Of a stretch of 64,000 nucleotides of DNA, positions 9,242 through 64,000 are shown piece by piece. The stretch is from assembly GCA_050084515.1 (NCBI GenBank), contig CM114271.1, positions 38,068,001 to 38,132,000 of the forward strand. The letters run 5' to 3'. This stretch comes from Blasia pusilla. Lineage: Eukaryota. The stretch's first letter is position 1; every line of letters starts with the position of its first letter. A model generated the notes under the pieces. That model saw only the letters and a program-made list of their open reading frames with translations, did not search any database and had not been told where the DNA came from. The translations under genes were made by a program, and so were the position numbers.

Positions 9242-9299
9242 CTCCCCGGACCACCACAACCATCGCCCTTCTGTCCAAAGATGTAATCTACGCGGGATT

Positions 9300-9529
9300 C
9301 ATGATGTGCCTTGCTTTGCCTGCAGCAGAATCCGTCACCCTGGCACTTCTACCCGTGGACGACGTCCATCGCCCAATGAAATCCACCAAGGATCCTTTGC
9401 CCTGTCCTTTCTCACCCTTCTCAATTCTTTTTCTTTGCTGAACTCTTTCGCCTCCCTTCTCGGACGCCAATCAGCCTGAATATGCATCGACCTTTCGTGA
9501 ATTCAACGCCCTCCACAGCCTCCTCCTCC

Positions 9530-9567
<38 letters not shown>

Positions 9568-9862
9568 CTCTCTCAACTGTTGCACAATTTGCGAATCAAT
9601 TCGGGCCCCCGTGGACAATAAATCACTTCATTCATTCATTCGTGCGTGCATGCATACATTAATCGATTTCCAGCGCCTGAACATGAGGCGCTGGAAATCG
9701 ACAACTGACGGCGATGAAAACGATGGCGAATCATACGGAGCCACGGGCGTCGCAGTCGCAGTCCGCCCAGTCTCTTAAGGCGATCCGGACTACTTCCATG
9801 TTCTCGGTTGGAAACCACGCACGAGGGCGGGGGTTTCTCGCGGACCGGATCAGCCCCCCGCG

Positions 9863-9893
<31 letters not shown>

Positions 9894-33975: not shown

Positions 33976-35618
33976 TAATTTTATTAACTTGAAAGACTAA
34001 TAATAGTTCAAAACAAATCCAAATAATACAAACTTAAAAAAGCCATATGTCAAAAAATAAATAGACCCTCCGATAATAAATATTTTTTCCATAATAATAT
34101 AACCCTCCATTGTATCCCATTCTTATGTCACGACCGTCTAACTAACATTGGGGTTGTCTAGTCCTTCTCGTACAAGAACCATGACCCGAGGCCGACTGCA
34201 ACAATTCTAACAAACCGCCAAACTCCACGTGGACTCCTCAGAGCAGAAGCAAGTACCGGAGACCGGCTACAGCCTACAGCCCCTTGAAGGAGACTGCCAC
34301 TGGACTGGTGAGTCGGTGACTGACCTTCTAGCTTTGCCGGTCCTAGTCCCGTTCCTCCCTCGGAGGCTCGGAGACCCTCCCCAACGCGACCCCGACCCGC
34401 TTTGGACCGTTGCAATGATTTAAACGGCGAGCAAACGCGGAGAACGCAGCCTAAATTTACGACCATACCACCGGTGGGTCCCGCAGAAGTCCAGACTCCA
34501 GACTCCAGAAAGCGCAGCGGAAAGGCAATCGCTTGTCCGTACGCCCCGCATGGATGATGGATGGATGAACGAGTGGATCATCATGGACGATGGACGGGCC
34601 GAGTTCGTACACTCTGATCCCAGCCAGACCACTTGAATATCCGTCCGTCCGTCCGTCCATTCGACTCTGTTGTCGTAGATGCGGTGGATGGTGTAGAGCA
34701 CCCGTAGTACCGTACAGATCCGGCGACACAGGCACGGACGGCGTGAGCACGGATGGACTCATGGAGCGCACGGCGGCTGGGAATTCGCGGACGACTCCCG
34801 GCGTATGTCTTTCCGTCCGTGGCGTTGCGTCCTGCGCGTTTCCAGAGGAAGAGAGAGAGAGAGAGGGTCCGCTGTGTGTGGGGTTTCAGGTGATTGCGCT
34901 TTCCCCTCTTTTGTGGCGCGAGATGCAACGCCATGGAAAGAAGAGGGAGGCGGATTCGAGATGGATTCTGGCGCGTGAGGCAAGCAATCGGAGGGGACGC
35001 CATGGAAACAGACGGGAGCGACGGGGAGGCTGGGAGTGGGAGACGGATGCGTGGGCGGTACTCCAGAGGATGTGGGTGAGAGGATTTGGCATTCATTCCC
35101 TTTGCTGCGGGAAACGAATCTGCTCCGGATTCTGGAGATGGAGGGAGAGGCGTGCGTGGATATTGAATGAAGCGGGTGTCTCAGAGTCTCTGTGTCCCTT
35201 GGGGATTTCGTGGTCCGTGCGTGAAGGGCTAAGCTGAAGAGTACTCGGTGCCTTCTCCTCTGCGCAGTGGTCACGGGCGCGCCATTCGAGCTCGAAGCTT
35301 TGGCGGTTTGATGTGCTCATCTTGCACGATTTCTGAAGGGATTCCGACTTCGAGACCGGACGGAGCCGACACGCGCCGCGATTGAAGCGATGTTTTGACA
35401 TTTCATGATTGCAGCGAAATGGGAGAGACCACGCCTGTATGCATTGCACCTCCGAATGCCAGGAGAAAGTTCAGCGCTCTGGAATTGGCGGATTTCGTCG
35501 CGTCGATGATTCAAACGCTCTGTTAATAAAGTCGGCAGATCGGGAGGGCTGGGGATCATTCATGCGCTCGCGTGTCTCGCGCAATCAGTCTACCGTTCGC
35601 GAGGTGCCATGGAAGCGA

Positions 35619-35693
35619 TGGGTTTTTTTCCATCACTCGTTTTTATCGAAGTGCATCTTCTTTTTTCTTCTTTTTTTCTTTTTCTTTTTTTTT
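35619..35693 (+). mobile_element. 5'-truncated retrocopy of the non-LTR 3' end, with T/TTC tail and 11-bp TSD
   Basis: tgggtttttttccatcactcgtttttatcgaagtgcatcttc matches 346-384 apart from a longer T run. It is followed by a T-rich tail and flanked by CATGGAAGCGA at 35608-35618 and 35694-35704. Confidence 0.85.
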
Positions 35694-36276
35694 CATGGAA
35701 GCGAGTAATGCGTCCGAAGTTAGGAACGTGACAGAACCGCGAGACGAAAACTCTCTGGTAGTGCAGTGCACTGAGTGCACTGACCTCTCTACGTTCATAC
35801 CTAGGTCTGCTGGCATACGAGTTCGCATTATCAACAACGCTCCGAATAATCAATGCGCCAGCAGAATGAGAGCCGGCCTCATTCCTCCTTCACCATTGAC
35901 CAGAGCCTCAAAGTCCCCCCCCCCCAACCTCAGATCTCATTCTCAAGTCCCGCATTCCCCCCTGCACACATGCGGGTCGTTCTCTAGGTAAGAAGAAGGA
36001 CGTGCATTAAACCACATTTCGGGTTTCGGAACCCCGACAGCACAGCGGTACTCCTTTGGCGCAAACAAGTCGACATTTAAGACCTGTCAGTAAAGGACGA
36101 GCGTCTGACAATCGCCACAGGACTCCGGAGTCTGGAGAAATCTCAACTGTGACTACCATGGGGGATTACGACGAAGTGCGCACCGGTCGGTCGGTGACTC
36201 TGGTCTACCCCTACTCCTCCTGGGACGGGCTCATAGCCTCATAGTCTGAGGCCACTGCTTTTTATCGCTTTTTAAG

Positions 36277-36375
36277 AGCAATAAAATATATATGTAGAAA
36301 AAGGATGGGAAACCATCACGATACCAAAGAGGGGGGGGCATGGAGACCCAAAAAATAGAACCGGCCCCGAGGCTG
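36277..36375 (-). mobile_element. 99-bp insertion with 14-bp TSD, related to the non-LTR 3' UTR
   Basis: Flanked by TATCGCTTTTTAAG at 36263-36276 and 36376-36389. The - strand reads cccccctctttggta..gatggtttcccatc..ttttt, compared with ccccctcttttgta..gatgggttttccatc..ttttt at 325-368. Confidence 0.7.
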
Positions 36376-38746
36376 TATCGCTTTTTAAGGCTCTCGGTCC
36401 GCGCCACGGTTCAAAGGAAATCAGCGCAATGAATGCACCGAGTTTTGGGGATTGTGAGAGTTCATCCTAAGTTCAAAACCGCAGCTATTTCTTCTCCGTT
36501 CGCCTCGCACTGTCCACACTCCAACCGTCTTACTATTCCTCGGAGTTCTTTCTCGCAGACAGTAGAGACGATTCGCGGTTACAGCGAGAGAAAGAAAAGA
36601 CATGAAGTGAAATAATCTTTTCTCGTTTCTTCCTCTGCTCTGCTCTCGTCCGGATCGATGAGGAAAGGAAACGAATGGCTATAAGAACTGCTTGTTTGCG
36701 TGCAGCCTATAGTTTCCCTAATAGCGACGGGGATCAAACAAACCACTGCGCAATGTTCGGGCCGGCGACATAGAGGCTTCTGACAAGCACTCCGAGATGA
36801 AATGCGAAGGCCACTTCCGTAGCAGCGACGGCAGAAGCGCAATTGCCTCACAATTGCGCTTGTGAGGCAATTGCTCATGCACTTGCCTCCTGTCTCCGAG
36901 GAGGGGGTCCAGAACACAGATTCGCATCCCTCGCCGCACCCGCTGGACTGGCCCCTCCATTCGCCTTTTCAGATCAAGACATGTCGTGTAAAAAAAGGCT
37001 ACTAGTCTCCGAGGAATCCGAGAGCCTATTATCCCCATCTCGCACTCCATCTCCTTGCGGGTGCCCTGGCGGTGAGAGCGGGGCGTTGATGAGGCGAGAA
37101 GAGGAAACCTTCCACGCCTGTGGTCCGCCATCGCCATCGGGTACCACCGACTCGCCGGCAGAGCTCACCGCCGATTATTGTCGTCGAGCTCCGCTGCTCC
37201 CGCATACTCTGCGGATCAGACGGCGTCGAGGCGAGCGCGAGGGAGCTTGAAATCCTCGTACTGTGTGGGCAACACGAATACTACAGCGTTCTGCAGAGCA
37301 AGCGTGCTTCTTGCATTCGGCGGCTCCGGCCATTCCGAGCTTTTGCGCTCTCGTAGTTCCCGGTTTTCAACGGCACTAGCGCCTTCGGAAACCTGGACGA
37401 GGATCCACGCAAGCAGCGAGAGTGGTTGTTTCTTGCTGTATCAAAAGAAAAAACTAATGGCTCGAAGCTCTCCACCCGAGTGGAGAGACATTTGCGTAAG
37501 GAGCAGGTGCGTGAAATCTTGGTAAATCCATGAGGGCTACTCATGGCTCGAAGCTCGACCCGCGTAGAGAAGCGAAGAAGCTGCAATGGCGGCCACTTTG
37601 TTTCCGGAGGCTATGGATGGGAACTGGACCACACGCCAGTTGCATATCTCGTACGAATGGGAGAAATTTTACTTGTGGATCTTCCACACATGTTTTCCGG
37701 TTCTGGAAAGAGCCCAATCCCCATCGATTTCGTTAGCTGCTGACGGTAGCTTCCGCCAGCAGCTAACGAGATCGTTGTAGGAGCTGAAAGAAACCATGGC
37801 AGACAGAAGTGCAATTGAGAGCCGATGCACAGGTGGCTAGTCCAGTCCATTCATGCTGCAGGGTTACAATCGGAACAGCAGTGTGCCATACGCCATTTTC
37901 CGAATTTTTCGTCTCCTTATTAAACTCGCTGGATAGAACAGAAGGATAAATTCTGCAGAGATATGAACATTGAATACGCTTTCTGCAGTCCCAGGACGAC
38001 CTGTTCAGTCACCTAAAAGCCGTTTGTTTTGCGAGCTTAAGCAACCGTTTTATGAACATGCTCTCAACTTGAGATGGAAACTATCTCACTCACTTGTCTG
38101 CGAAAGCCTTCGCATAGACAACTCGGTAGCCACAATACAGTCAGCATTTGACACATTCAAAACGTCCAAATCGTTTCAGACACACAGATATGTCTTTCCA
38201 ACCACTAGGATCTGACCATGATGCTGCTTTCCAGCTGAAAGCTAGCACCACAGAGGACCAATGAGTTCGTCCTCGCTAACAGGACCCAACAAGAGATTCC
38301 CATGTCCTACGGGGAAAGAGCTGCCCCAGTGGCTGTAGCCATGTCCTAAGGATTTGTGCCAGACAGCCTTCCAGTCCCCGACATGCTGGAGGTTGCAACA
38401 GTTGTTCCAAAAATGCAGGCTGCGGTGCCTCCGATACATTTTCGAGGATGCTCAACCATCTTCCAGGCAGCAATCTGCAAACGACATAAATCAGGGGTGT
38501 GCTGTATGTTTCTTCCGAAGCATGAGAACTGACGGTCTGCGTATACCCTGAAAATGATTCCCCAAAGTGCGCCACAGGGGCTGATCTGGACAGATGGTCT
38601 TAGGAGGTAACCTTGTTCTGAATCGCAAGGCTCAAGAGCAATGGTGGTGAACCTCCATAAAAACGGGTGCTACTAGAATTTTACATCCTGTCTCAACAGA
38701 AAAAACTACAATAGAATGAACTCCAAAGAATTGACTTTGCGCGCAC

Positions 38747-49077: not shown

Positions 49078-52000
49078 CTCTTGACTTGGGGAGGTAAACG
49101 CTTTTTCTCCTTGTTGTTCATGGCAATTTATGTCATGTCGGGGCCAACAAAATGCATGAGGAATAGAACCTCATCATGCATAGACCTAGCACTACTTCCC
49201 TCACTTAGCACCTTTGTTGGACATTTGGTATGTAACAAATTTAAATCGTCTTGTAGCAAATTGTCTAGAGGTACTAGTTTACAAACTCTCCCATATGATT
49301 GGATTATGTGAGGAAATATAAGTGTGAGCATGCCATACCATGGTTATATTTATCTATTCAAATAGGATTTTTTCCTCCATAGCATAATGACAAAGAGTGG
49401 ATATGAATGAGAAGCCTCACATCAATATTGGAGAAGCATGAAAGCAATTAAAGGAAGAAATAATAGGAAGACCAAGAATAACATAAATCAAATTGGTAAC
49501 AAAATTGTCAAGTTGAATGGGAACACAATAGTTGGTTTACAAGCGGAATATGGTGTACCGATGTCTCAAAGTCAATGAGTTAAAAATTCTATATTGAGGA
49601 AGGTATACCTCTCCAAAATCAAAGAAAGAGTAAGCTGTAAATATACTAGTTGTTAGATTCCATTTGGAGGCTCATAAATGAGTGTAAATAATAGTGATCA
49701 GCGAGTCTACCAAGAGGATGTCATGAAAAGTTTTAGTCCATGGATTATGTATGAAATAATTGAAACTAGTATGATGTCTGTGTAATGCACAAATGAGGGG
49801 AAATTTTTCCTTGCTTTTCTTAATTCTTTAGCCCTCTTAATTTAATTATTCCCTTAAATCTAACACGTGTCAAGAGTAGAAGAGTTTTCAAAGGACAGGT
49901 GTCAACATCGGAGGAGGGTTTCTCTAACCCCATCCTCTGTTAATATTATAGACTCTCTCTATATATAAACTAGCAAGATAAAGATCCAACTAAGCACATC
50001 AACCATTACCAACCCCCTTAACCCAATATTTAGTTCATCCTTTATTGCCTATTTTCGATCATCACAAGAGTTTTCTTAATAGTTAAAAGTCCCCTTATAA
50101 TAATATTATTGAGAAAAAAATATTTAAATTATGAAAAATGGATTTACATTAAAATTCTATTACATCTCAAATTATTTTGTTATCTTTTTTAGCTAATTTT
50201 TTAACTAATGTTTAATATTGGTAGTTGAGATATTTAAGGCACATTCTTTGGTGACAAAAGTCTCTAATTATTCTTTTATTTATGCTAACAAAATTTTAAA
50301 CTTTGAACTTTGGACATATATCATAGGCTTCATGAATAGCTTATGAAGAAATATTCAATTTATGTGAAAGGGGTAAAAGAGGTAAAACCTAATCTTTTAC
50401 CAAAAGAGGGCTTTTAAAGGTTTCTAAAAGGTTTTAGTCCGAATAGGGTTATGATAGTGAAGAAGGCATACACTTTTTAAAAGTTAAGATTTTATAAGTA
50501 TTTTTTAAATCTTTATTTCCAATATGTGAGAAAGGATAAATAAATTTTACTTTTCAATGAGACAAGCAATGGGAGAAAGGGATAAATTCGTAACAAAGGA
50601 AGGGTTCATAATGAAAAAAAAACAATTAAAAAATTAAGATTTTCACTAGATAAGGTAAGCATAGAAAAATAGGTTTAATTTTGAAAAGGGGAGGGGAAAG
50701 GGGGACATTTTCAATAAGGGTTGGCTTCATGAGCATCTCTTTTTACAATCTAGTTGATCTGCAATATACTAGGGGAAAAGGGATAATGCTCACTTTTCAA
50801 TAGAGGAGGGGAAAAGAGAAATAGATAAATTTGCAACAAAGGACGATTCCCTAAGGAATGTTTTTCTAAACATATTTAATATAAAATCTGAATTTAAATT
50901 GGGGGAGGCGAAGGAGAGAGAAAGGGACAAATTTTCAACAAGGTAAGGCTTTACAAAGATATTCGAATGTTTTAGATTTTAATGGGGAATGGAAGGAGAG
51001 AAAGGGAAGAAATTTTCACGGGATAATGAATTGATTAACCTTCCTTTAACCCTCTCTTGCCTCTAGAAAGGGATAATTGGATGAGGACGAGAGTTATGAG
51101 ACATATGAAAATAACCAACTCACTGTATTGGGCTAGAGAAACTACTATATTCGTACCCACTTTGCAAGTCGTGGGAACCGCAACTAAGTAGTAAGAGTGT
51201 TGCATTGAAATTGAAATTTTGCAAGTCCTACACTCGCAATTAACTTGCAAACTTCATGAATAGACTCACCAATTATGGCAAAAGCATGACTCAAAAAAAA
51301 TTTTCCTTCCACTTGCAGTTTAGTCACACTTTGGTTGCACAAGTCTTGCCAGGTGTACTCACAAATTTTTTGAATCTTTTGCAAGTCATTCGGGGATGTT
51401 TACGAGTTTGAGCAGTCACAAAAAATTTACTTGTAGCTCACTTGAAAATAGTCAAAAAAATTTGCCCAGAAAGCCACAAAAAATGAATCCAAATAATGGT
51501 TTTTTCCTCTTAAAAAGTTTTTTTTTTCTCCTCTTCTATTCAATTTGGACTCATTTTTTTATCCAAGGGGGATTTGACTTCTTCCAATTTTTCCTTCAGG
51601 GTGGAATTTCTTTTCTCGATTATATTGTTATATTTTAAAATCAAGAATTGGAAAAAAAACATACAATATAATGAACCTCACTTATCTACATGTTCCTTAA
51701 ATTATTTGATTGACTAATAGTGCAATAATGCGCACACTTGCAATTAAAACATTAGTAGAGTTGTATGATATGTTGGCAAGTAGGTGTTATAAACCCTAAG
51801 ATTCATAATTGATTTTTGGGAGGAGACGGTTTCCTATTACTAAAGATGGAAATAATTATAAGATGATGGTTACTGGTTAGATGAACCAACTAGCCATTTG
51901 ATTTTTGTGCAGGGGGGTGATCCACAAGGAAATATGATAAATACATTAGAGACATTTTTATGATAGTATTTGCTATCAAAGAGAGTTTTTGGAGGGAAAT

Positions 52001-52462
52001 ACCCATACGAAGGACATTCCTATAGCAAAAAATTCCCATGAAGAGACAAACCATGATAGATATATGTTCCCATAGTGATGATACCCCTCAATCATTATGG
52101 GGTACAAGTATCAAGTTATAGAGGAATAAAGACAAGCGTATGAAACAAGCATGGATTGAGGCCTTCATTCCGGAGTATGAGGAGCTGGTAGTCTTGGATA
52201 CCATATCCATTGTATAATAGTGTCCCAAAGAGAGTGTGAGAGTGTTTAATCTCTTTGTAGGGATGAGCATGGGATTGGATAAAATGTTATAAGCTAACAT
52301 ATGGGTAAATTGGTATATATAAATTGAGAGAGATGACATTTCATGATGAATTTCATTACATCATATGGCAAGGTTGGTCCAAAAATATTATCAAAATTTA
52401 TTGGTATTGGTAGTATGTAGGGTACCGACATACATTACTCTCATATGTTTCGTTATTGGGGA

Positions 52463-53116
52463 TGTCACATCTTTTGCAGCGAGTCAATGAGTATCCATAG
52501 ATTGCCTTTGGTGAGGTTGGAGGACATACTCAAGAGGTTGAGGATGAACTACTAAGAACTAGGGTAACCTGAGAGAACATATATCCCCTTATTTTGGGCT
52601 CATTTGGAGTCATATTGAGAAACTTATTATTTTAAGTAAGTTCCTATTGTAAGTATACTTGCCTTTCTATTTGGGAAAGTGGTCTTCAACCTACTATTAC
52701 AAGTCAAGAGCCAAGGAAGTGAAGTGTGTGGATAAGTGACCAAGGAGTATACCCTAAGAGAGTAGGCTTGAGAGCTCGTTCCCTCTTAGTTGAACCTCCT
52801 TTCATGAGGTGGCGGAGCTTTGGTCCTCCTTGCATTGTAAGTAACCCATGCCTCTCATTATGAGAGTGGATTTGGTTAGACATGAGAGAGATAATTAATG
52901 AATAGATTTATAGTCCATGGGGACCCCACAAGGCCATGAGAGAGAGACAAAGAAAGAAAGAAAGAAAGAAAGAAACACAAAGAATGAGTTTTGTGGTGAC
53001 TTGATTTACAAAGATGATCGTTTATGTGTTTAGATGCCATGAGTAAGTATAGATCTTGTGTTTATGTGTTTGGCAATAGCGATTATTTTTGTGTAGTAAT
53101 TTGTAAACGCACAATA
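52463..53116 (+). mobile_element. Solo LTR (~654 bp), diverged relative of the LTR at 55036-55679
   Basis: TGTCACATC...CGCACAATA aligns along its length to the reverse complement of 55036-55679 (TGTCACGTC...CGCACCACA). Flanks GGGA/AGGA may be a 4-bp TSD. Confidence 0.8.
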
Positions 53117-54329
53117 AGGATGAAAGATTTTAGGAAAGATCTAGACAAAGTTGGCATAATTCATTTGGTGATCTATGGATTGTTATGTCAAGGTCGTTCA
53201 TTGGATGGTTAAGAACTTAGTTTGCAAGATACGAGGGAGAGCATGTTTTGAAGATGTTGCAAGTATTACGACACTTGCATTAAAATCAAACATATAATGT
53301 ATATTTTAGGGAACATGTTGTTGGGTAACAATTGTGCATAAGTTAGTATGAACTTATACCAAACAAGATCCTAATTAGGCTCAATAATATATTTAGACAA
53401 GATGAGTATTGGATTACACATACAAAGTCCATGATCATGGTGGACAAACCTCCTACCATCATAGGTGCTAAGGCAAGCTTATAATAGAGTTCAAAGAGCA
53501 TTGCACTCGAGAATGGATGTTATCTTAAATCTAGGGCGATAATCTTAGATTGTGACTCATGAGGATAGACTATTGTCATCTTTAGGCAATATGGTGGGGG
53601 AGTTGAGGGTAACACTATCCATATTGATGAGATTTTTGGAATCCCTTGCCTTTCCTTCAGGAGGTTCGTACATGATCTGAGATGAATAGGTACAAGGATT
53701 GGAGGAGCATACTTGTGATGAGCAAGAGTGAGCAATGGGTTTTATATCGGTTTAACCATAATATTGAGTGTTAGGGCCAAATCTCATGCACATAAGGAAT
53801 TGGTGACTATAGAGGTTCGCCCGTTTTTCTGCACCCAAATCTTTTGGGCGCAAAATGGCCCAATGACCTCCATCTATTTATGATTGGAGGTAGTTATTAG
53901 GGACCGGTACATTTTTTTGCATTATCCATTAGTAGATTACTTTGGACGCACAAATGGAGGTCGCGGGAACCTCTACTCGTGTCTATGGGATCGCGCTCTT
54001 AGAGTCATCATGGAGACAAGTGTTAGGTTAATTGATAAACTTGAACTATCTAACATAGATAGTCAATCTAGGATTTGCTAAGAAATAATGAATCTAAGCA
54101 ACATCCATTTTATCATGTCTACCTATTAGTCCATTTCATACAAAGATTGTTGAGGAATTTGTTGAGTTTTTTGTTTCTTTTTTTTTAATGGGGGGGAATT
54201 CAAGGAGATATATATGCTCATGAAAACCATGGACTATCCTTCAAGAAGAGTGTGTGAATTTGGATAGTGCAGAATATGGTCATTTTTCACATATAGAGCA
54301 TGATGTTATGATGTCTTCCATAAAGGTGA

Positions 54330-54770
54330 CTAGGCTTATTGAGTGGTAATCAGAGATTGTGCCTCCTTCTTTGAATGAGGTTATGATGGAGACTTGAGAG
54401 CATGTGGTAGGTATGAAGTTGAGAAGAGGAGAGAGATGAAAATAAAGATCTCCTCAAGAGTAGGTATAGCATATTGATGTGACCTCGTGTGTTGGTTGAA
54501 AGGACAATCATCTCCACATATCTTCCTAGCCTTTTGATTGCCATACATATCCTTCTTTACAAACATAGCTCTAATAGACTCATACTCTCTAAGTGATAAC
54601 TCTGCCAATCATGCCCCCACAAGCCTTGACTTCCATTTTTAATCAATGCTCTCTCCATGCCACAATATAAAAGTGTTATTCTAAAAAATAGCATATTACT
54701 AGCCAAATTTCTTCGTATACGAGGAACCTTTAAAGTGCCCAAATCCCTCATACTAGCCGTCTCAAGACTC
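54330..54770 (-). pseudogene. Older degenerate gypsy RT fragment of the same family
   Basis: MRDLGTLKVP, MERALI and EYESIRAMFVKKDMYGN...YAIPTLEEIF correspond to MEDLGTLKGP, MERALI and EYASATVMPTKKDVHGN...YAMPTPEEIF at ~58660-58965. Confidence 0.8.
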
Positions 54771-55035
54771 ATGCCATTGTTGTACGCATACACATTGCTA
54801 CACAATATACATCGTTGTCACCGAATACACACACAAACACGCACGATCCCATGCTAACTCATGACATCCAAACAACCAAAATATCTCCAATTAAATCAAG
54901 ATCCAATCTCTCACACACCACCATAGTTATCACATATGTGCACTCTCACATGTCTCTCTCAATGTCAAACCAAACCCACTCTCCTAATAAGAAGCTTGGG
55001 TTACACTCACAAGGCAAGGGACCATAACTCCGCCA

Positions 55036-55679
55036 TGTGGTGCGCATACACATCGCTACATAACATACATCGTTGTCACCGAACATACACACAAACACGC
55101 ACGATCCCATGCTAACTCATGGCATCCAAACAATGAGACAAGAAGTACTAAAATATCTCCAATTAAAGTAAGATCCAATCTCTCTCTACACCATCTCACA
55201 CCATAACTCTCAAAGGTGTGCACTCGCTCTCATGTCAAACCAAACCCACTCTCCTAATGAGAGGCTTGGATTACACTCACAAGGCAAGGGACCATAGCTC
55301 CGCCGCCTCATGCCAAGAGGTTCAACAAAGAAAGAATGAGCTCTTAAGCTCTCTCTCTCCTTGAGGTATACTCCTCCCCTCTCCCAAGCTCTCTCCATGG
55401 TAACATATTCTCCCAAGTCACATCCTTGGTTCTCGACCTGATGTAAGAGGTCAAGGGCCACTTACCAAAAATAGAAAGTCGATCATATACTCAAAATGGT
55501 ACTTATCTAAAATAGTAAGTTCATCAATATGGCTCCAAATGAGCCGAAACGAAGGGGAAACCTGCTCTCTCAGGTTTCCCAGGGCCTCAACAAGTCATCC
55601 TCGACCTATTGAGCGTGTCCTCCACTACTCACGAAGGCGTTCTACTAGATCTCACCGATCTATCTTAAAAGACGTGACA
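55036..55679 (-). repeat. Full LTR (644 bp, TG...CA) flanked by two partial LTR copies (54778-55035 and 55682-55808)
   Basis: Three copies of tgt(t/g/c)gt(a/g)cgcatacacat...atatctc(c/t)a start at 54778, 55036 and 55682. Confidence 0.8.
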
Positions 55680-55995
55680 ACTGTCGTGCGCATACACATC
55701 GCTACACAACATACATTACTGTCACCGAACACACACACAAACACGCATGATCCCATGCTAACTCATGACATCCAAACAACGAGACAAGAAGTACTAAAAT
55801 ATCTCTAATCGCCCCCCTAGCTAGTGGTTAGGTCCATCTAACTCCAAAAAGGCATCTTTCCCTACCTACCATCACATACATCTCTCAGACGCTAAGAGCA
55901 AGAAGGCCGGATGCTCATGTGGCCCCATCATTAGTCACCTTCCTATCATCCATGTCATAGAAAAAGTAGGAATCGAAACCTACCTAGTATCTCCT

Positions 55996-57260
55996 CTATG
56001 TATATCTGGGACATATCCATCGTCTCCGAGGAACCCTAGTAAGAGGTGATGTCAGACATGCCATATGCCAACCTCTCGAACATCCATCACAGACTAGCAT
56101 CGTGGCCGCACCACCGGCAGAACCACACAACATACAACGCAAGCATGTAGAAACTATTGCTAAGCTCGGATCTACTGTACCATCAATGTTAGAAAGATGA
56201 CATGGTGCACAATTGTGCACATGGTCCTTCCATACCATACCATCGTATCCCTCCAGCAAGAGAACACCAGATGACAAAACGTCACGCACTCTCAAGATAG
56301 TGCATCCTACAGTCACATCCAACGTCGTTAGTAGCGTCTGTTACAAGTAGACATAATCTCCCTGATGAAACCTCCTGATAGTTGGTCGATAACCACCACC
56401 CCGAATAGTTGCATACCTCAATGTACCCCGATGTTGTGCAATTGCCAAGTTCTTGAACGCCATGGGCATCACTCTCCGAAACAACTCAGCCCTCTAAGAA
56501 CATGCTCACATCCATACATCTGGGTCATCAAGGTTCAGTACCTCACCAACATCTCGACCAATGGCCGTAAGTAAATCTGGCTCTCGGCCATAAAGTAGCA
56601 AGTACGGTGAAAAAGACGTTAAGGATGTCTGCATGCTGAATCTGTATCCCATCGCCAAAAAGGGCAATTGGAGGTCCCAATCTCCTAGGTGACCTCTCTG
56701 CAAGCCATACTTGCGTAAATCCCTCTTCACCATATACACAACTCTCTTCGCTAATCCATCCGCCTCGGGATGATCTCGCGAAGTTGTGCGATGGTCGATC
56801 AGCGCCTGATCACACAAGGCCTCGAACTCACCACGAAACTCGTTACCCTGATATGTCAATACCTCAACCGGTGCGCCATAATGACGCAATACTCTGTCAA
56901 GGAAGGCATAAGCTACTCCCTCACTCGCTTTGTCAGGAAATGCAACCAACTCGATCCACTTCGAGAAGTGCTCGATCATCACCAACGCATAACGATTGAG
57001 ACGCTCCGTCAAAGGCAAAGATCCTACAAAATCCAAACTCCATCTATACCCTAAGCCCATGATTGGTAATGGATGCAACTGTGGTGTCGGAGCATTGAAC
57101 GATGCTCGGACCCGATCACACACCATGCACCTTGCAGCAAGCTGCTGAACGTCAGTCTGCATGCCTCGCCACCAATGATGAATTTGGAGCAAGCTGTACG
57201 TCCGCTTCACCCCAAATTGACCCAACTCCTTGTGGGCATGCTACACTAGTCGTGCTCTAT
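55996..57260 (-). pseudogene. Gypsy integrase with C-terminal PHD finger
   Basis: H..LGQFG...HWW.GM..DV...CMVC zinc-binding region; decayed DDE (WSLDF, VLTYQG, GLAKR); then CMLC..MLVCDGCSRGWHMACLTSPLTRVPRRRWICPRY (56136-55999). Confidence 0.9.
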
Positions 57261-57558
57261 GCAAAGGATGAGGCACTACGCGTATTCTGCCATCCTCCCA
57301 AACCCTCAAAACATGTGTCCCCTCCCAATGGAACCGTCTCGCCCGCTGTAGAATCCGATCCCCCTCTCTAGCACCCATTGTGCTCGTAATGTTGCCACTC
57401 CGAAGGTACTCCAAGACTACTCCATCATCATGAATATCTCGGCCATCCGTCGTCTCCTCACTGGCCTCGGGATCCAAGGACTCTCCACTAGACCGCGCCA
57501 TCAAAGTCTCCACACTCTGGCTCTCCATATCCAACATGCCTAAATAGGCTTACGCGTG

Positions 57559-58990
57559 TCATCCTGGCACTGACTCCTCATCACTCTCTCCATGCCATCG
57601 AGCTCTAGTTGCATCTCGCTGACTCAGGCATGGGTTACGACTCAACCCATCTGCATCCTGGTTGAGCGTCCCAGGTCTATGTACCACTTGAAAATCATAC
57701 TCCTGCAACAACAGAGCCCATCTCGCAAGCTTCCCTGTAAGCTTGTCAGACTCCATCAACCACTTCAGTGGTTGCTGATCAGTGATGATGGTAAAGGGGT
57801 TGCCGAATAAGTAACACCTGAAATACGTGACAGCCCACACTACAACCAAGCACTCACCCTCATACGAGCTATACTTCACCTCTATAGCGTTGTTTGAGCG
57901 GCTAGCGTTAGCCACCATGAACTCTCTACCCTCATCATCATGCTGGGTGAGCACCGCTCCAAGCCCCATCATGCTCCAATCTGTGTGCAACTGGAAAGGA
58001 CGCCCCCTGATCGGTCTCTTCAAGATGGGCGTGAACGTCAACCTGTCCTTGAGCAACTTAAATGCTTGCTCCTGCTCATCCCCCCAGTGCCACTCGTGGT
58101 CCACCTTGGTCAGCAAGGTCAACGGCTTTGCAATCAAACTGAATCCCTTGACGTACCACCGATAGAAGTTTGCCAATCCCATGAATGCGCGAACATGACT
58201 CACATCTGTAGGGCGGGAATGCGTGAGATAGCCTCAACCTTTGTCTGCTAAACACCATTGCCCCCTGGTATATCGTTTGATCTAAATACTCAATCTGGTC
58301 GTAGAAGAACTTGCACTTGCCTGGATATAACTTCAGCGCATGTAATTGCAATCACAAAACACCTCCTCTAAATGTCGCTCATGCTCCTAAACCGTGGCAC
58401 TAAAGACTACGATGTCATCAATATAATACCTAGCAAAATCCAAACCAGCCAAGATCCTATCCATGACCCTCTAAAACTCAAACGGGGCGTTCTTTAACCC
58501 AAATGGTAAGAGCCGCCATTGGTACAAACAATCCTTCCCGTGAGGATTGATGCCCCAAAATTCCGTCTTCTGCATGTCCTCCAATCTGATAGGGAGCTGA
58601 TGGTATCCGGCTCGCAAATCCAATGAATTGAAAACCTTTGCATAACCAATCGTATCAAAGATCTCCTCAGGGGTGGGCATGGCATACCTATCGGATTTTG
58701 TCTGCCGATTGATAGGTCGGTAATCCCTACACATCCGCCTATCCGTCCAGTTGCCATGCACATCCTTCTTGGTGGGCATGACAGTGGCAGATGCATACTC
58801 CCCATGCGAGATCTCCACTAGTATTGCTCCAACCAAGTTCTGGATCCTACTCTGAATCAGAGCCCTCTCCATATCACTGTACGTGTAGGGTTTTCAGAAG
58901 ATCGGTGTATCACTCGACAACTCAATGCAGACCCCGGTCCCTTCAGCGTACCCAAATCCTCCATGCTAAACGCAAAGCAACTCCTATAAC
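57559..58990 (-). pseudogene. Gypsy reverse transcriptase and RNase H
   Basis: ORFs 58471-58872, 58076-58351 and 57559-58203 carry the canonical motifs, with stops and frameshifts. Confidence 0.93.
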
Positions 58991-59413
58991 TCATGAGGAA
59001 CTGATATATTCGGCGCCGCTCTCCTCTTGTCAACTTAAGGCCCATATCTGGCTCCCAAGTCTCCATCGTGACTACTATAGGACTCTCCGACGCGGATATT
59101 GGTGGTTGCTATGGTGCAACCTTGTCTCAAAAAACAACATTTGACCGCTCTCCTGCAGCCAACTACAAACTCTGATCTCCTCCACATGCAGTGCCCGGAA
59201 CCACGCTCGATGCTGTGGCTATCATCACCTGGCATACCTGCAAAACATCCCAAGAAGTCCAAGGGTGTCTCTCTCGATCTCCCTGGTGTGTCGATCTCCT
59301 CGGGTCTTGCCCCCAACCACTACCTCCACCATCTCGGTAGGCATGGAGCTCACCAACGCAACCGATGTGATCTGTGGCGATCTCATCCGACCTTGCTCAG
59401 CCACTCCCAAGCT

Positions 59414-60356
59414 GAAGATCCATATCAAATAGTTCAGGTCCATCGCCTGACCCAAGAGATGGCATCGTGATGCCTCTGATACTGACGGGACTGCCGTCAC
59501 TCCTGGGGGAAATCCCATCGCCCACTCTTTCTCGTTGGCGTTGGGCTCCACCAACCTCTGAACCTGGTCATCCCAAACCAAGCCAGGACCGGCCACCTTG
59601 TATGCATAAGAAGCGGGAAAACTCACAAACGTGGGAAAGGTTTCCCGCCGCCTGCCTACCCTGTTGACCACAGTCAACGGTGGTCGATCATCGTGCCTCA
59701 CTACATGTGGTCGACGACCAGGATCCAGAATGGAATCCACTAACAAATGGGAGGGGCGCTCCACTCTCGCATTCGCCCTCCGTAAGACTACCTGGGGCAC
59801 CAAGTTGGTCCACCATAGACGCGGCGATGGGCTCTAGAACCTACACTCGCCGCATCCAAGAACATTGCTGGGCTGATCCAGGCACGCACCTGATGAGCAC
59901 TTGTCACCACCCGTGACCTAGAGTCTCCTAAGATGGGCACATTCTCCAGAATGTAGGCTGGAGAACGAGATTAGTGCTCCTGCAACTGCCGTAAGACCCT
60001 CAACATCTCCCAAAACAACCTAAATCGAGTATCAGCCAACCCGCTGCCTCATCCAACACTCCATTGGCCCTGACATGGCCAACCAGAAATGACCAAATCA
60101 ATGGTCCCTACGTGCTCTAAGTCCTGCGCCCCCGACAACGAAATATATCCCTCGGTAGGGAACTCTGGTATCCCTGTACCGCGGACGCAGACAATAAGTC
60201 GGGAAAACGTAGGCGTAATTGCGCCATATGTCGTAGTGAGATGCGCCTCGCAACATCATCACTCTCCATATATAGGTACTGTTGTACTCACACTCTTACC
60301 TGCAAAACAACAACTAACCCATTGCTAATCCCTCCAAAGAGATCTAACACTTGAAT
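59414..60356 (-). pseudogene. C5-cytosine DNA methyltransferase domain (DNMT3/DRM-like) embedded in gypsy pol
   Basis: Manual translation: motif I IQVLDLFGGISNG (60356-60318); II YLYMESDDVAR; IV IDLVISGWPCQG..GLADTRFRLF (60102-60067 onward); VI YILENV (59955-59938); VIII LDAASVGSRAHR(P)RLWWTNL (~59860-59801); IX EKEWAMGFPPGVT; X RCHLLGQAMDLNYLIWIF. Three stops and two frameshifts. Confidence 0.92.
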
Positions 60357-60554
60357 ACCCTCCTCCGGGGTACACCACACAAAAGGTGTGGTATCCAAGA
60401 TTATCATCGTAGCACTCCCTGCTACCTCAGGTTCCTTAGACCCGTCATGCTACGGTGCAAACGCCTCACTCCACACGGTTTGCACGTGCTCATCTACCAA
60501 TTGTCGAAGCTCCTCAGTTGAGCCCCACAGCGGCACCTCTCCTCCACGGAATGA

Positions 60555-61295
60555 TTAGGCTATCATAACACTCCTCTCCATAGAAATGTTAGGAACGGGA
60601 GTATCCTCTGCATGGACATGTCCCTCAATCAAATCACTAGGCCAAGTGATGGCACTGCTAAATGCTGCTAAGGTCGCCATCTCTCTTGGCCGTTGCTCGA
60701 TCACTGAACATGTGAATTGAACGGGTAATGAGCTAAGGCGCCCATCACTTGACTGCCATCCTCGTCTGTAGGACGCCGACTCTTCCCAGTAATCCAGGAA
60801 AAACCCCATCGGGTATAACACTGCTCCACCAACCAAGACGTCGTAGGACTCTGCATTAGTCACTATCGCCTTCGCTCACACCATGGACTCATCTGTAGGA
60901 TGTCCCGGGCGAATCCTCACCACGACCTCCTGTCGGGTAATATACTATGTGGTACTCGCTCCACCCAAGGATTTCTGTATCCGGAATAGACAATGCTCCA
61001 CATCGGCTCTCGTCAAGCCCAATCCTTTGAATGACGCTTTCCCCAACATCAGGGATTGGGCTCCTGAATCCAACAAGACGCGTTGCGGACTAAAAGCTCT
61101 ACCTCCGGGACTCACCAAGTGGAAGACCTCTCCTCGGTTATCTAGCAACACAATACCAGGAGAAGCCATGGCACGCTCTATCGCGGGTCTAGCGGGCATC
61201 TCCGCCATCCTAGCAGCCGCAGCCTCCCATGAATCTGACATGGACGGCCCGAGCATCCGCTCCAAGGGCAGTTCCATCACCTCCTCTGCAATCAC
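60555..61295 (-). pseudogene. Gypsy aspartic protease region
   Basis: FSPQRVLLDSGAQSLMLG followed by YDVLVGGAVL. Confidence 0.8.
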
Positions 61296-61639
61296 CTCTC
61301 AACGTGATGTAAGAACTCCAACTCCACACTCACATAGCGTAGCAGCCAACTGAAAAGCCTTGGCGGGCGTACCCCCCAACGTCATATCATCGGAAGCAAA
61401 AAATAGAAGAGCGCGGTACACAATGGTGGCCTCCCCCAACAACGTGCTCGACACATGCCCCTCTTAAGCATCAACAATAGGAGTCGTCGCACTCGCTTCT
61501 CCCATCACCCTCCGTGCGTGCACACCAACAACGTCACCAACTCTCCAGGAACTCTGATCAGGACCCATCGATGGGGTCCTCATCGCCTCAGACAACGTGA
61601 AAGACTGGGGAAGCCTAGTCTGTTTCCTGCTTCCCCTCA

Positions 61640-63150
61640 CTATGGATCCAACTCTGTGGCTGCTCCACGCGTCACAACTATGGCGGCCTCCATCTGGGCA
61701 ACCCCGCACATCCAACCAAGATCCTCCATATCTCTGGCTGCTCCATATGATATCGATGCCACGGATTCGGCATCGGGTAATCTCAATGCCATAGAGGCAA
61801 TCTGCTTCTGTAGTTGATGTATTCGAGCACCCATTCTAGCCTTACGCCTGGTATCTCCCTCGATGCGTCTAGGTGGTAGGACTCTACCTCCTCCACGGGC
61901 AGCTCCACCACCCTCTCGGGCAACTCCAGCTCCTCGTCCCCCAACGGGACCACCTGGTGCAAGATCTCTAGGCCCACCCGGACCGACTACTCGCTCTGGT
62001 GCCCTCTCTGGCCCTCGGTCCGAACGTAACTCAGGATGTAAACTGAAACACCTGGCGCGTGTATGACCATACCTCTGACAATAGTCACACTGATAACCTC
62101 CTGGTGCAGCACCATCTCCTCGTCCATGCTGAGGCACATGTCCATGACCCTAACGAGTGCAATCGCGCTGATGATGGGCTCCACCACATGACCAACAAGT
62201 AATAGTAGGCGGTTGCTGTTGAGCCGCATATGAAGGCGAAGGTCTCTGTGGCACTGCCTCTCGGTATCCTCCCTGAGCTCGTGGGGCCACAATCGACCTA
62301 TCTCGAAGTCCATGTTGCTGCACAGATAGTGCAGACAATCGTGACTCCTCTCGCCCAGAACCCATGGTGGCTATGCTCTCCTCCGCCATGTTGCACTCAA
62401 TGTTCTCGGCGGTCCTGAAAACATCTCTCAACGTAGGGGAGGTGTTCAAAAGAAGTACCCCCTCCCGCACCCGTGTCCGCAGGGTCCGGTCCAGCATCGC
62501 GTACCATGACTGGATAGCTTGAGCCTCTGTCACCCCCTAGTGACGTTGATCAATCGGCGCAAGCGAGTGTAAGCCTCAAGCAAACTCTCACCCGGGCGCC
62601 TCTGGAAGTCGTGGATGCTCCGCAACTTCTCCGTTCGTACCCCTTGGTGGCTCGCCCTCAACTCAGCAAAGAACTCAACCACGGGGTTGAACCTGGGATG
62701 AACCCGACTAGACGGTGCAACTGCTCCAGTGCGAGTGACCCGTCCTAAAATATCACTAGTGGAAGAGGAAGTAGCCTCTCTTGACTCCTCCTCTTCATTT
62801 GGGAATGGCTCCGTCCATGACACATAGTGTGGGTCGTAGTAGATTCGCCATGCCTCAATCTCCAGGGCATATCTGTGGGAGAACTCATGGTAATTGTCCA
62901 TGGGTGCCCCCTCTAAATGCTGGAACATACCATTCCATGGTGTAAACGAGTTGAACTCTCTAGAGTTCGTGGCATGCTATGAGTCGCACCAACTCCTAAA
63001 CTCTGCTATGAAATCGTGCCTTCTGCACCTGAAAACCTACGCGGTCTTCTACCCGATCGTCCATCTTGTACACCCAACTGGTAGGACCTCTCACAATGTG
63101 TGGAGATGTGCTCACAAACTCCTCTACATGCTCCCCCTCGTCTGAAGACG
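61640..63150 (-). pseudogene. Gypsy gag with two CCHC zinc knuckles
   Basis: FQRRPGESLLEAYTRLRRL (major-homology-like), CWSCGGAHHQRDC, CDYCQRYGHTRARC and an RG-rich tail. Confidence 0.8.
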
Positions 63151-64000
63151 ACACAAAAGGAGATCGAGGTGGTCTCTCACGTGGAGACCCTCGAAACCTC
63201 GCACCACTCCGGGTAAATCCTCAAGAGCTACTCTTAGGTCCATTACTTTGCCTCTCAAAATCCTAAAAGGACGTCGTGATCGCCCTTGTGCCCCTCTCAC
63301 ACAATCACTCTCAACCTCACGAGTAATCCCTCGATCACTCATCCCAAACATACGGCATTCGATCTACACTCTCCATCCTTGAGATGTGGAACGTGCGGCA
63401 ACAAGCGGCGCGGTGCGGCACATTGACCAGGCTATCATCTCATCGACAAACTACCCTCAACTCCGGACATCCCACACAGGTCTATGTCCCCTAAACCACA
63501 TACATAAATGACGATCTCAGCATCCACACACCCAATATCCCCAAATAAACTACCCAAATCCCAGAATCCCTCACACGTGCAGGGTAAAGGATCAGAATGG
63601 GTAACCTAAACACATGTCGATATCGCTCCTCAAAAACTGCAAATCTCGACCCCAACTCGGTCGTGGAGACAACTCCTCCAATCAGCAAGTCATACTCCTC
63701 TCGTACTGACGCTGCTTAAAACTCTTTGATGGACAGTGCGATTCCAGCAGAACGGTGCGGCGTTGCAGGCGGCACAGAACGGTTACGAACGGCACGACCC
63801 TCGATGATGGGATGCAACACTCGTCGGCATACCCTCCTCAATCAACAATAAACCCACACTCTGCTCCACAATGACGATGCGGCTCCACGATCGAGACAGT
63901 GCGGTGCGGCCACGAGCGGCATGACGCGGCAATCGGCGGAGCGTTGTGGCTACGGGCGGCACGGCATGGTACTCGATCGTCGTCGAGCGGCTACCAATCA

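What the first reader, a model, noticed from the sequence alone, without database searches (positions are those of the whole stretch)
59414..60356. Ty3/gypsy retrotransposon encodes its own DNMT3-like cytosine methyltransferase between protease and RT
Seen: reading the - strand across 3 stops and 2 frameshifts gives C5-MTase motifs in canonical order: VLDLFGGIS.G (I), YLYME.D (II), DLVISGWPCQG (IV, catalytic PC intact), YILENV (VI), DAASVGSRAHR.RLWWTNL (VIII), E.AMGFP.G.T (IX), R.HLLGQAMD (X). The domain is ~315 codons, between PR and RT, with no introns seen. Established: motifs VIII-X resemble DNMT3 (AHRARYFWGNL; ERVFGFP..YT; RQRLLGRSW), and the order is not circularly permuted as in DRM. 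MTase-carrying retrotransposons have been reported in dinoflagellates and charophyte algae; I do not recall this as a standard feature of land-plant gypsy clades. Inference: the MTase was part of the pol polyprotein and could be packaged to methylate the element's cDNA or new insertions, for self-regulation or host mimicry.
Basis: partly seen in the sequence, partly recalled or inferred. Interest (0 to 1): 0.95.

Follow-up and report, generated by a model that had tools for sequence, protein, structure and literature searches.

The report
Decayed gypsy retrotransposon carrying DNMT3-like methyltransferase
This is a dead copy of a jumping gene whose own protein chain includes a DNA-methylating enzyme of the DNMT3 type, a kind already described in a green alga and here also found in liverwort and peat-moss records.

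Summary
On the - strand, 60368-59393 reads as a non-permuted C5 cytosine methyltransferase broken by 3 stops and 2 frameshifts. One piece read with X at its stops hits Pfam PF00145 above the curated cut-off.

The domain lies between protease and reverse transcriptase of a Ty3/gypsy-ordered element that ends in integrase plus a PHD finger. Intact single ORFs elsewhere have the same order (P0022, P0178). Marchantia, Calypogeia and Sphagnum gene models are collinear with gag-PR-MTase.

An intact relative (P0159) matches DNMT3A/B best, by sequence and by fold.

In a DNA run with the window's species label, the whole element, MTase included, is covered hundreds-fold by 90-95% alike reads. Three RNA runs show strand-biased reads along it. 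Most reads differ from the window by an indel at both frameshift places. So this copy is dead, but its family is abundant and transcribed.

This is the kind published as KnitGypsy-Dnmt3 (PMC5890265). I rate it a new member of a known kind. What the enzyme does is untested, and I found no paper describing bryophyte members.

The parts
61970..62976 (-). gag region with CCHC zinc knuckles, frame -1
   Evidence: Collinear with residues 10-164 of the Marchantia model P0160. CX2CX4HX4C strings are visible in the ORF translations. The upper bound is the ORF end only. No Pfam gag family was found.
60555..61298 (-). aspartyl protease region, frame -3, with in-frame stops
   Evidence: Weak Pfam Asp_protease_2 (E 0.079, below the cut-off). 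Collinear with the PR part of P0160, P0157, P0022 and P0178, whose PR regions hit Pfam.
59393..60368 (-). DNMT3-like C5 cytosine methyltransferase domain, motifs I-X in canonical order; 3 stops, 2 frameshifts (about 60144 and 59824)
   Evidence: tblastn of P0159. PF00145 at 35.4 bits on 59827-60141 read with X at the stops. The GWPCQG and ENV motifs are present.
58217..58965 (-). reverse transcriptase, frame -2, with a frame-shifted stretch 58351-58217 and stops
   Evidence: Pfam RVT_1 E 5e-08 on 58471-58893. Ungapped HSPs against P0022 and P0178 leave 58360-58212 out of frame -2.
57559..58233 (-). RNase H
   Evidence: Pfam RT_RNaseH E 6.9e-33 and RT_RNaseH_2 E 1.6e-29.
56506..57465 (-). integrase (H2C2 zinc domain and catalytic core)
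   Evidence: Pfam Integrase_H2C2 E 4.3e-10 and rve E 1.6e-09 on 56506-57240. tblastn of P0025 and P0037 reaches 57465.
55996..56340 (-). C-terminal PHD finger after the integrase (PHD proper about 56004-56136)
   Evidence: Pfam PHD E 2.6e-10, 40.6 bits against a cut-off of 24. Collinear with residues 2119-2341 of P0178, whose PHD is at 2300-2344.
51956..53749 (+). second, much more decayed PR-end/MTase copy on the other strand, interrupted at about 52533-53135
   Evidence: tblastn of P0157, P0158, P0159 and P0160: 26-40% identity with many stops. GC 0.377, CpG observed/expected 0.39.

Best explanation
The window holds a dead, mutated copy of an LTR-type Ty3/gypsy retrotransposon on the - strand. 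The family's gag-pol polyprotein reads gag(CCHC)-PR-MTase-RT-RNaseH-INT-PHD.

The MTase is a DNMT3-type C5 cytosine methyltransferase with no introns and no rearranged motif order. It is an integral, inherited part of this element lineage, not a secondary insertion in this copy. The family is abundant and transcribed from the sense strand in the organism whose runs carry the window's species label. Relatives occur in liverworts, Sphagnum, Closterium and many unnamed environmental contigs.

It is the same kind of element as KnitGypsy-Dnmt3 of Klebsormidium nitens.

Mechanism (inferred, not shown): in intact copies the MTase is translated within Pol. PR either frees it or leaves it joined to RT. 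It then methylates cytosines of the element's own double-stranded cDNA, or of the new insertion. The PHD finger on the integrase reads a histone-tail state and steers integration.
For: Shown:
- Motifs and frames of the domain.
- PF00145 above the cut-off on the window's own piece.
- Pfam order PR, RVT_1, RNaseH, Integrase, PHD on one strand.
- Single intact ORFs with the same order: P0022 and P0178, both collinear with the window.
- Named gene models collinear with gag-PR-MTase: Marchantia P0160, Calypogeia P0157, Sphagnum P0165. Marchantia P0316 and Riccia P0307 run from MTase into RT.
- Size of the family: 644 representatives at E<=1e-3 and 283 at E<=1e-10 for the 202-aa window piece.
- DNMT3 type, tested on the intact relative P0159. 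By PDB sequence: DNMT3A 6.1e-12, DNMT3B 1.4e-09, DNMT3C 6.1e-09, a DRM 1.2e-08, M.HaeIII 3.5e-04, DNMT2 0.02. By fold: model pLDDT 87.3, and every chain listed by Foldseek is DNMT3A/B/C, best E 3.9e-19, TM 0.82.
- PC, ENV and other motif residues are at least 90% conserved in 32 aligned relatives.
- The MTase tree (75 rows) and the RT tree (63 rows) both split MTase-before-RT from RT-before-MTase proteins by one branch with SH-aLRT 100. The window falls on the MTase-before-RT side in both.
- DNA run X17: all 30 bins covered 215-1380 deep; 46186 of 49526 laid reads are 90-95% alike and 147 are >=99% alike.
- RNA runs X20, X21 and X22: the first mate lies on + in 30, 29 and 30 of 30 bins, which the tool text reads as RNA of the - strand.
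- At both MTase frameshift places most reads carry an indel relative to the window: 567 of 791 and 290 of 374 DNA reads. In the three RNA runs the counts are 30 of 38, 20 of 20 and 28 of 43 at one place, and 6 of 7, 0 of 0 and 8 of 8 at the other.
Against: - No LTR pair or other terminal repeat of the element was found in the window. The 5' end may lie beyond base 64000, so 'LTR retrotransposon' rests on domain order alone.
- Raw ORF pieces give no Pfam hit and the 202-aa piece gives no PDB hit. The DNMT3 assignment is therefore made through a relative that is 52-63% identical, not on the window copy itself.
- No DNMT tree with host DNMT3, DRM, DNMT1 or bacterial outgroups could be built.
- No Klebsormidium sequence was among the proteins fetched, so kinship with KnitGypsy-Dnmt3 is by architecture only.
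- MTase bins are shallower (321-831) than PR bins (about 1210-1320) and the two RT bins 58339-58880 (about 1050-1130). Some copies may lack the domain or differ more there.
- Almost no RNA reads are >=99% alike (0, 0 and 1 in the three runs), so this copy itself is not shown to be transcribed.
- Activity is unproven. The KnitGypsy-Dnmt3 domain gave no methylation in yeast, a result its authors call inconclusive (PMC5890265, section 10).
Confidence: 0.85

Rival explanations
1. The MTase block is a one-off capture or nested insertion in this copy, or an assembly chimera. It is not part of the element family.
For: MTase bins are 2-4 times shallower than the PR bins in the DNA run. The neighbourhood is a mosaic of nested repeat fragments.
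Against: Single intact ORFs with PR-MTase-RT exist. 20 of 86 two-domain proteins have this order. Marchantia, Calypogeia and Sphagnum models are collinear with the window. The MTase bins are still 321-831 deep, from reads only 90-95% alike. The MTase and RT trees show the same deep split.
Confidence: 0.02
2. It is a pseudogene of a host DNMT3 gene that merely lies between transposon fragments.
For: The best structural and sequence matches are cellular DNMT3A/B. Plants of the bryophyte grade have host DNMT3 genes (PMC6453930 abstract; PMC10952607 passages).
Against: There are no introns. It is on the same strand as PR and RT, and collinear with single-ORF polyproteins on both sides. It is high-copy in the DNA run. 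No PWWP, ADD or other host-type N-terminal domain was found by Pfam in P0022, P0178 or P0176.
Confidence: 0.02
3. The element family is real, but its MTase was acquired independently of the Klebsormidium elements. It may also have been acquired independently in the two architectures, PR-MTase-RT and RT-RH-MTase-INT-PHD. On this reading it is a convergent new lineage and not a member of the published one.
For: Two insertion positions exist, 20 and 66 of 86 proteins, separated by a branch with support 100 in both trees. No Klebsormidium protein appeared among the named hits. PMC5890265 documents recurrent independent acquisitions.
Against: Both architectures share the PHD after the integrase. 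Their MTase domains find each other at E down to 1e-59. Their RTs are close enough to align over about 450 residues. One acquisition followed by a move inside pol explains this equally well. The word-based searches could simply have missed Klebsormidium.
Confidence: 0.15
4. The enzyme's role is not cDNA self-methylation. It could act on host chromatin at large, on RNA, or serve only as a structural spacer in Pol.
For: No activity was detected for the Klebsormidium domain in yeast (PMC5890265, section 10). That paper's Discussion (section 11) lists several alternatives.
Against: The catalytic motif residues are at least 90% conserved across 32 relatives, which argues against a mere spacer. The fold matches DNA-bound DNMT3 structures. 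Nothing here separates cDNA from genomic targets.
Confidence: 0.3

Closest known systems
KnitGypsy-Dnmt3 of Klebsormidium nitens (de Mendoza et al. 2018, PMC5890265; sections 9-11 and 15 read, figures and supplements not seen)
   Same: An intronless, non-rearranged Dnmt3-type DNMT inside the Pol ORF of a Gypsy-type retrotransposon of a streptophyte. Key catalytic residues are conserved.
   Different: Here the named hosts are land plants (Marchantia, Calypogeia, Riccia, Sphagnum) and Closterium. The family is high-copy in the run laid, whereas the paper speaks of few copies in K. nitens. A PHD finger follows the integrase. I could not see where the DNMT sits in the K. nitens Pol, nor compare sequences. 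The DIRS-like repeat structure named in that paper's Fig. 4 legend was not found here.
SymbioDIRS-Dnmt3 and SymbioLINE-Dnmt of Symbiodinium (PMC5890265)
   Same: Retrotransposon-borne C5 DNMTs. The DIRS ones are Dnmt3-type and methylate CG de novo in yeast.
   Different: They belong to other retrotransposon classes (DIRS, LINE) and to dinoflagellate hosts. No integrase/PHD module is described in the text I read.
Animal DNMT3A/3B/3C catalytic domain
   Same: Best sequence and fold match for the intact relative P0159. Motif order I-X is the same, and motifs VIII-X are alignable (alignment).
   Different: About 20-23% identity. No PWWP or ADD domain lies upstream of the MTase. The domain is embedded between PR and RT.
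Plant DRM methyltransferases
   Same: A weaker but significant sequence match (E 1.2e-08 and 1.6e-04).
   Different: DRM motifs are circularly permuted, according to the PMC5890265 section 9 text. Here the order is canonical.
EpiLTRs and DAM-carrying retrotransposons (bioRxiv 10.64898/2026.05.21.726589; passages read)
   Same: LTR elements that combine a DNA methyltransferase with a chromatin-reader module.
   Different: Those carry adenine MTases plus a DNMT4-related DNMT and a chromodomain. This element has a DNMT3-type MTase and a PHD finger.

Membership tests
C5 cytosine DNA methyltransferase (Pfam PF00145) | Profile match above the curated cut-off on the window's own sequence | tested here: met
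   35.4 bits against a cut-off of 22, E 1.1e-08, on 59827-60141 read with X at two stops. The raw ORF pieces and the other two pieces gave no hit.
C5 cytosine DNA methyltransferase (Pfam PF00145) | Motifs I, IV (Pro-Cys), VI (ENV), VIII, IX and X in canonical order | tested here: met
   Seen in the alignment to P0159 and in the piece translations. The motif numbering is from my own knowledge.
C5 cytosine DNA methyltransferase (Pfam PF00145) | Open reading frame able to give an active enzyme | tested here: not met
   3 stops and 2 frameshifts in the domain. At least 7 frame changes along the element compared with single-ORF relatives.
DNMT3 subfamily | Closest solved relatives by sequence and fold are DNMT3 enzymes | tested here: met
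   Tested on the intact relative P0159, not on the window copy. DNMT3A E 6.1e-12 ahead of DRM and bacterial enzymes. All chains listed by Foldseek are DNMT3A/B/C.
DNMT3 subfamily | Placement inside the DNMT3 clade in a phylogeny with DNMT1, CMT, DRM, DNMT2/4/5/6 and bacterial outgroups | not tested
The trees hold element proteins only.
DNMT3 subfamily | N-terminal reader domains of animal DNMT3 (PWWP, ADD) | tested here: not met
   Pfam finds none upstream of the MTase in P0022, P0176 or P0178. A PHD lies far downstream, after the integrase. PMC12344493 (passage) says protist and algal DNMT3s also lack companion domains.
Ty3/gypsy LTR retrotransposon | Pol order PR-RT-RNaseH-INT on one strand | tested here: met
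   Pfam hits in that order from 61298 down to 56506. Collinear with P0178.
Ty3/gypsy LTR retrotransposon | Flanking long terminal repeats, primer binding site and polypurine tract | tested here: inconclusive
   No direct repeat pairs 62500-64000 with 50000-56600. The window ends at 64000, about 1 kb upstream of gag. PBS and PPT were not looked for.
KnitGypsy-Dnmt3-type elements | Intronless Dnmt3-type domain within the Pol ORF of a Gypsy element | tested here: met
KnitGypsy-Dnmt3-type elements | Sequence kinship with the Klebsormidium copies | not testable with these tools
   No Klebsormidium protein was among the named hits.

The most novel reading that the evidence does not exclude
The DNMT3-plus-PHD gypsy elements form one old lineage with two pol layouts. 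It spans chlorophytes (Monoraphidium), zygnematophytes (Closterium) and land plants (liverworts, Sphagnum). It is still high-copy and transcribed in at least one land plant. On this reading, element-borne de novo methyltransferases are a standing part of the bryophyte methylation landscape, and plant host DNMT3 genes and element DNMT3s may have exchanged.
Probability: 0.25. Interest if true: 0.7.

Novelty: new member of a known kind. Interest (0 to 1): 0.45.

Why it matters
Cytosine methylation is the host's main tool for silencing transposons, so an element that brings its own de novo methyltransferase reverses the usual roles. That idea has been in print since 2018 for one charophyte alga and for dinoflagellates.

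What this window adds:
- The same kind of element occurs in land-plant records: Marchantia, Calypogeia, Riccia and Sphagnum.
- It reaches high copy number in the run laid.
- It is transcribed from the sense strand.
- It carries a PHD finger on the integrase.
- It comes in two pol layouts.

Marchantia is a genetically tractable model. That would allow direct tests of what an element-borne DNMT3 does to the element's own cDNA and to the host methylome.

Tried and rejected
- Pfam on the five raw ORF pieces of the MTase: no family at E<=1.
- PDB sequence search with the 202-aa piece: none at E<=10.
- The genome search 'own' with PF00145: no genome is held for this window.
- LTR or terminal-repeat search around the element: only local repeats at 54773-55809 and an inverted match 55224-55679 with 52891-52463. 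Nothing pairs with 62500-64000.
- The look-up of sequencing runs: no RNA holder listed. The best share of words was 0.23, in DNA rows.
- Literature searches for bryophyte or land-plant DNMT-carrying retrotransposons found no paper that describes them. The term 'Gypsy-DNMT3' occurs in 2 papers only, and both refer to the 2018 work.
- Searches for a PHD finger on gypsy integrases ('chlamyvir' + PHD; PHD finger + integrase + chromodomain + algae) gave nothing relevant. My recollection that green-algal gypsy clades carry a PHD is unverified.
- The idea that the MTase is bacterial Dcm-like was rejected on the ranking.
- Supplements are closed. Supplementary Data 1 and Figs 13-14 of PMC5890265 and Fig. 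S3 of PMC12344493 may already list bryophyte members.

Full report
**1. What is in the sequence**

tblastn of an intact 368-aa relative (P0159) against the window gives three collinear pieces:
- 60485-60144 in frame -3, 52% identity;
- 60171-59824 in frame -2, 60% identity;
- 59824-59393 in frame -1, 63% identity.

The summed E is 2e-86, with no intron-like gaps. Inside the domain there are 3 in-frame stops, near 60290, 60049 and 59973, and 2 frame changes, near 60144 and 59824.

**2. Family assignment on the window itself**

- The five raw ORF pieces give no Pfam family at E<=1.
- The 202-aa C-terminal piece gives no PDB sequence match at E<=10.
- The 105-aa piece 59827-60141, read with X at its two stops, hits PF00145 at 35.4 bits against a curated cut-off of 22, E 1.1e-08, on profile positions 59-120.
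- The N-terminal and C-terminal pieces alone still do not hit.

**3. Context**

On the same strand Pfam finds, from 5' to 3':
- a weak aspartyl protease in the ORF 60945-61298, E 0.079;
- RVT_1 in 58471-58893;
- RNase H in 57559-58233, E 6.9e-33;
- Integrase_H2C2 and rve in 56506-57240;
- a PHD finger in 55996-56340, E 2.6e-10.

This is the Ty3/gypsy order.

Compared with single-ORF relatives, the copy changes frame at least 7 times. The frames run -1, -3, -2, -1, -3, -2, a shifted stretch at 58351-58217, then -2. The aligned pieces carry at least a dozen stops. It is a dead copy.

No terminal repeats could be paired. The window ends about 1 kb upstream of gag, so the LTRs are unverified.

**4. 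Is the MTase part of the family?**

The 202-aa piece finds 644 representatives at E<=1e-3 and 283 at E<=1e-10 among 1.84 billion proteins.

- P0022 (2188 aa) has zf-CCHC, protease, PF00145, RVT_1, RNase H and integrase, in that order, in one ORF.
- P0178 (2358 aa) has the same order plus a C-terminal PHD, which is exactly the window's layout.
- Both are collinear with the window.
- The Marchantia model MARPO_0008s0049 (P0160, 961 aa) aligns from gag at 62536 through PR to the end of the MTase at 59348. Calypogeia (P0157) and Sphagnum (P0165) models do likewise.

I built an MTase HMM from alignment A1 and ran it, together with a phmmer search using the RT-RH part of P0022, over all 339 proteins fetched:
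- 338 hold the MTase;
- 86 also hold RT;
- 20 of those 86 have the MTase before RT, among them Closterium P0179, P0180 and P0212, Marchantia P0316 and Riccia P0307;
- 66 of the 86 have RT-RH before the MTase, followed by INT and PHD (for example P0025 and P0037, and Monoraphidium P0200).

This set was collected by MTase similarity. It says nothing about how common MTase-free relatives are.

**5. Trees**

From the 86 proteins I kept 60. The criteria were an MTase covering at least 280 of 329 HMM positions and an RT covering at least 380 of 452 query positions. I also left out five proteins that are members of the clusters of P0022, P0025 and P0037.

- The MTase tree has these 60, 14 further MTase rows and the window read with X at its breaks: 75 rows, IQ-TREE quick, LG+G4. 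It puts all 51 RT-before-MTase rows on one side of a branch with SH-aLRT 100. The window sits in a 7-row group (support 99) with the Calypogeia, Marchantia and Sphagnum rows.
- The RT tree has the 60, two Closterium rows and the window: 63 rows. It gives the same bipartition with support 100, and the window groups with the 11 MTase-before-RT rows.

So the MTase has travelled with its element lineage. Without outgroups the trees cannot tell one capture followed by a move inside pol from two captures.

**6. DNMT3 type**

These tests use the intact relative P0159, which is 52-63% identical to the window.

- PDB sequence hits rank DNMT3A (6.1e-12), DNMT3B (1.4e-09), DNMT3C (6.1e-09), a tobacco DRM entry (1.2e-08), DRM2 (1.6e-04), M.HaeIII (3.5e-04), M.HhaI (about 4e-03) and DNMT2 (0.02).
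- An AlphaFold model built from a 32-row alignment has mean pLDDT 87.3 and pTM 0.88.
- All chains listed by Foldseek for that model are DNMT3A/B/C. The best is 6f57_D, E 3.9e-19, target TM 0.82, 22% identity.
- In the 32-row alignment the GWPCQ, ENV, AH..R..WTN and ERE..GF residues are at least 90% conserved.

The motif order is canonical, unlike DRM.

**7. The family in sequencing runs (observation only)**

Runs are coded. The stretch 59300-60500 is partly held by 11 of the 24 rows listed, with a best share of 0.23. I laid one DNA run and three RNA runs of the same species label on 55900-64000, requiring at least 90% likeness.

DNA (X17, about 1 in 100 of the run read):
- 49526 reads were laid. 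Of these, 147 are >=99% alike, 3193 are 95-99% alike and 46186 are 90-95% alike.
- Summed depth per bin is 215-1380.
- The four MTase bins reach 584, 831, 594 and 321. PR bins reach about 1210-1320, and the two RT bins 58339-58880 reach about 1050-1130.

My inference is that the family has on the order of hundreds of copy-equivalents and that the MTase is present in a large share of them. This is rough, because the single-copy depth was not measured.

RNA (X20, X21, X22):
- 2251, 1791 and 2433 reads were laid, nearly all 90-95% alike.
- The first mate lies on the + strand in 30, 29 and 30 of 30 bins, for example 72 against 5.45.
- By the tool's note on stranded libraries, this means the RNA is from the - strand, which is the element's sense strand. 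All MTase bins are covered, at 8.5-40 deep.

At the two MTase frameshift places most reads differ from the window by an indel:
- near 59822: 567 of 791 DNA reads, and 30 of 38, 20 of 20 and 28 of 43 RNA reads;
- near 60143: 290 of 374 DNA reads, and 6 of 7, 0 of 0 and 8 of 8 RNA reads.

The frameshifts are therefore private to this copy or to a minority of copies. Similar indel differences sit at other frame breaks: 58215, 58353/58354, 58931 and 61628.

Where the window differs from the reads, the places fall into these classes: A>G 171 and T>C 192, against G>A 53 and C>T 57 (X17). So the window copy has an excess of G-to-A and C-to-T changes. CpG observed/expected is 0.72 in the element, with TG at 1.41. 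Both fit decay by deamination of methylated cytosines. That is my inference.

**8. Comparison with what is known**

De Mendoza et al. 2018 (PMC5890265; abstract and sections 9, 10, 11 and 15 read) describe intronless, non-rearranged Dnmt3-type DNMTs in the Pol ORF of a Gypsy retrotransposon of Klebsormidium nitens. The copies have Ka/Ks below 0.2, and the domain gave an inconclusive yeast assay.

Two later papers cite only that work for 'streptophytes' (PMC12344493 passage; bioRxiv 10.64898/2026.05.21.726589 passages).

Six full-text searches found no description of liverwort, moss or other land-plant members. Supplements that might list them are closed.

The window's element therefore belongs to a published kind. 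The named land-plant relatives, the high copy number, the sense transcription, the integrase PHD finger and the two layouts are additions, not a new principle.

Its MTase is 59-66% identical to liverwort and Sphagnum proteins, and in the tree it is sister to the group formed by those rows.

**9. Mechanism**

Shown: the domain is translated as part of Pol in intact relatives, its catalytic motifs are conserved, and the family is transcribed.

Inferred: PR processing frees the enzyme or leaves it on RT. It then methylates the element's double-stranded cDNA or the fresh insertion, and the PHD finger on the integrase reads a histone state for targeting. Nothing here tests the target or the sequence context.

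**10. Verdict**

It is a new member of a known kind, of moderate interest.

Noticed in passing
window 51956-53749 (+): A second, far more decayed PR-end/MTase copy on the opposite strand. It has many stops, GLLCQG where the main copy has GWPCQG, an interruption of about 600 bp at 52533-53135, GC 0.377 and CpG observed/expected 0.39.
   Followed up: partly
window 54773-55809 and 52463-52891: Local repeats just 3' of the element. 54773-55034 matches 55032-55304 at 80%. 128-nt units lie at 54778, 55036 and 55682. 55224-55679 matches 52891-52463 in inverted orientation at 72%, and the latter stretch overlaps the start of, and runs into, the interruption of the second MTase copy. Whether any of this is an LTR or DIRS-like terminal repeat is open.
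   Followed up: partly
window 54444-54706 (-): An isolated RT fragment, 69% identical in DNA to 58657-58770 of the main element. It lies between the two MTase-bearing copies.
   Followed up: no
window 55996-56340 (-): A PHD finger follows the integrase, at the place where chromoviruses carry a chromodomain (that comparison is from my own knowledge). The same PHD is found in both pol layouts of the family. Its histone target is unknown.
   Followed up: partly
window 57873-58941 and 58518-58829: Joints seen in RNA only. A skip of 1067 bases has 7, 8 and 5 reads in the three RNA runs and 0 DNA reads. A skip of 310 bases has 22 other letters in between and appears in RNA only. They could come from spliced or deleted transcribed copies.
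   Followed up: no
window 16930-17382 (-): A weak integrase-like match (24-29% identity to P0025 and P0037), so another gypsy-like remnant lies elsewhere in the window.
   Followed up: no
proteins P0214 and P0258: Two members of this eukaryotic retroelement family are labelled by their source as bacterial MAG proteins (Minisyncoccia; Candidatus Obscuribacterales). This is probably mis-binned eukaryotic DNA.
   Followed up: no
window 8001-12000 and 34001-38000: GC-rich blocks (0.51-0.53) with CpG observed/expected of about 1.0. The rest of the window is at 0.67 and the element at 0.72. I did not look at what they encode.
   Followed up: no
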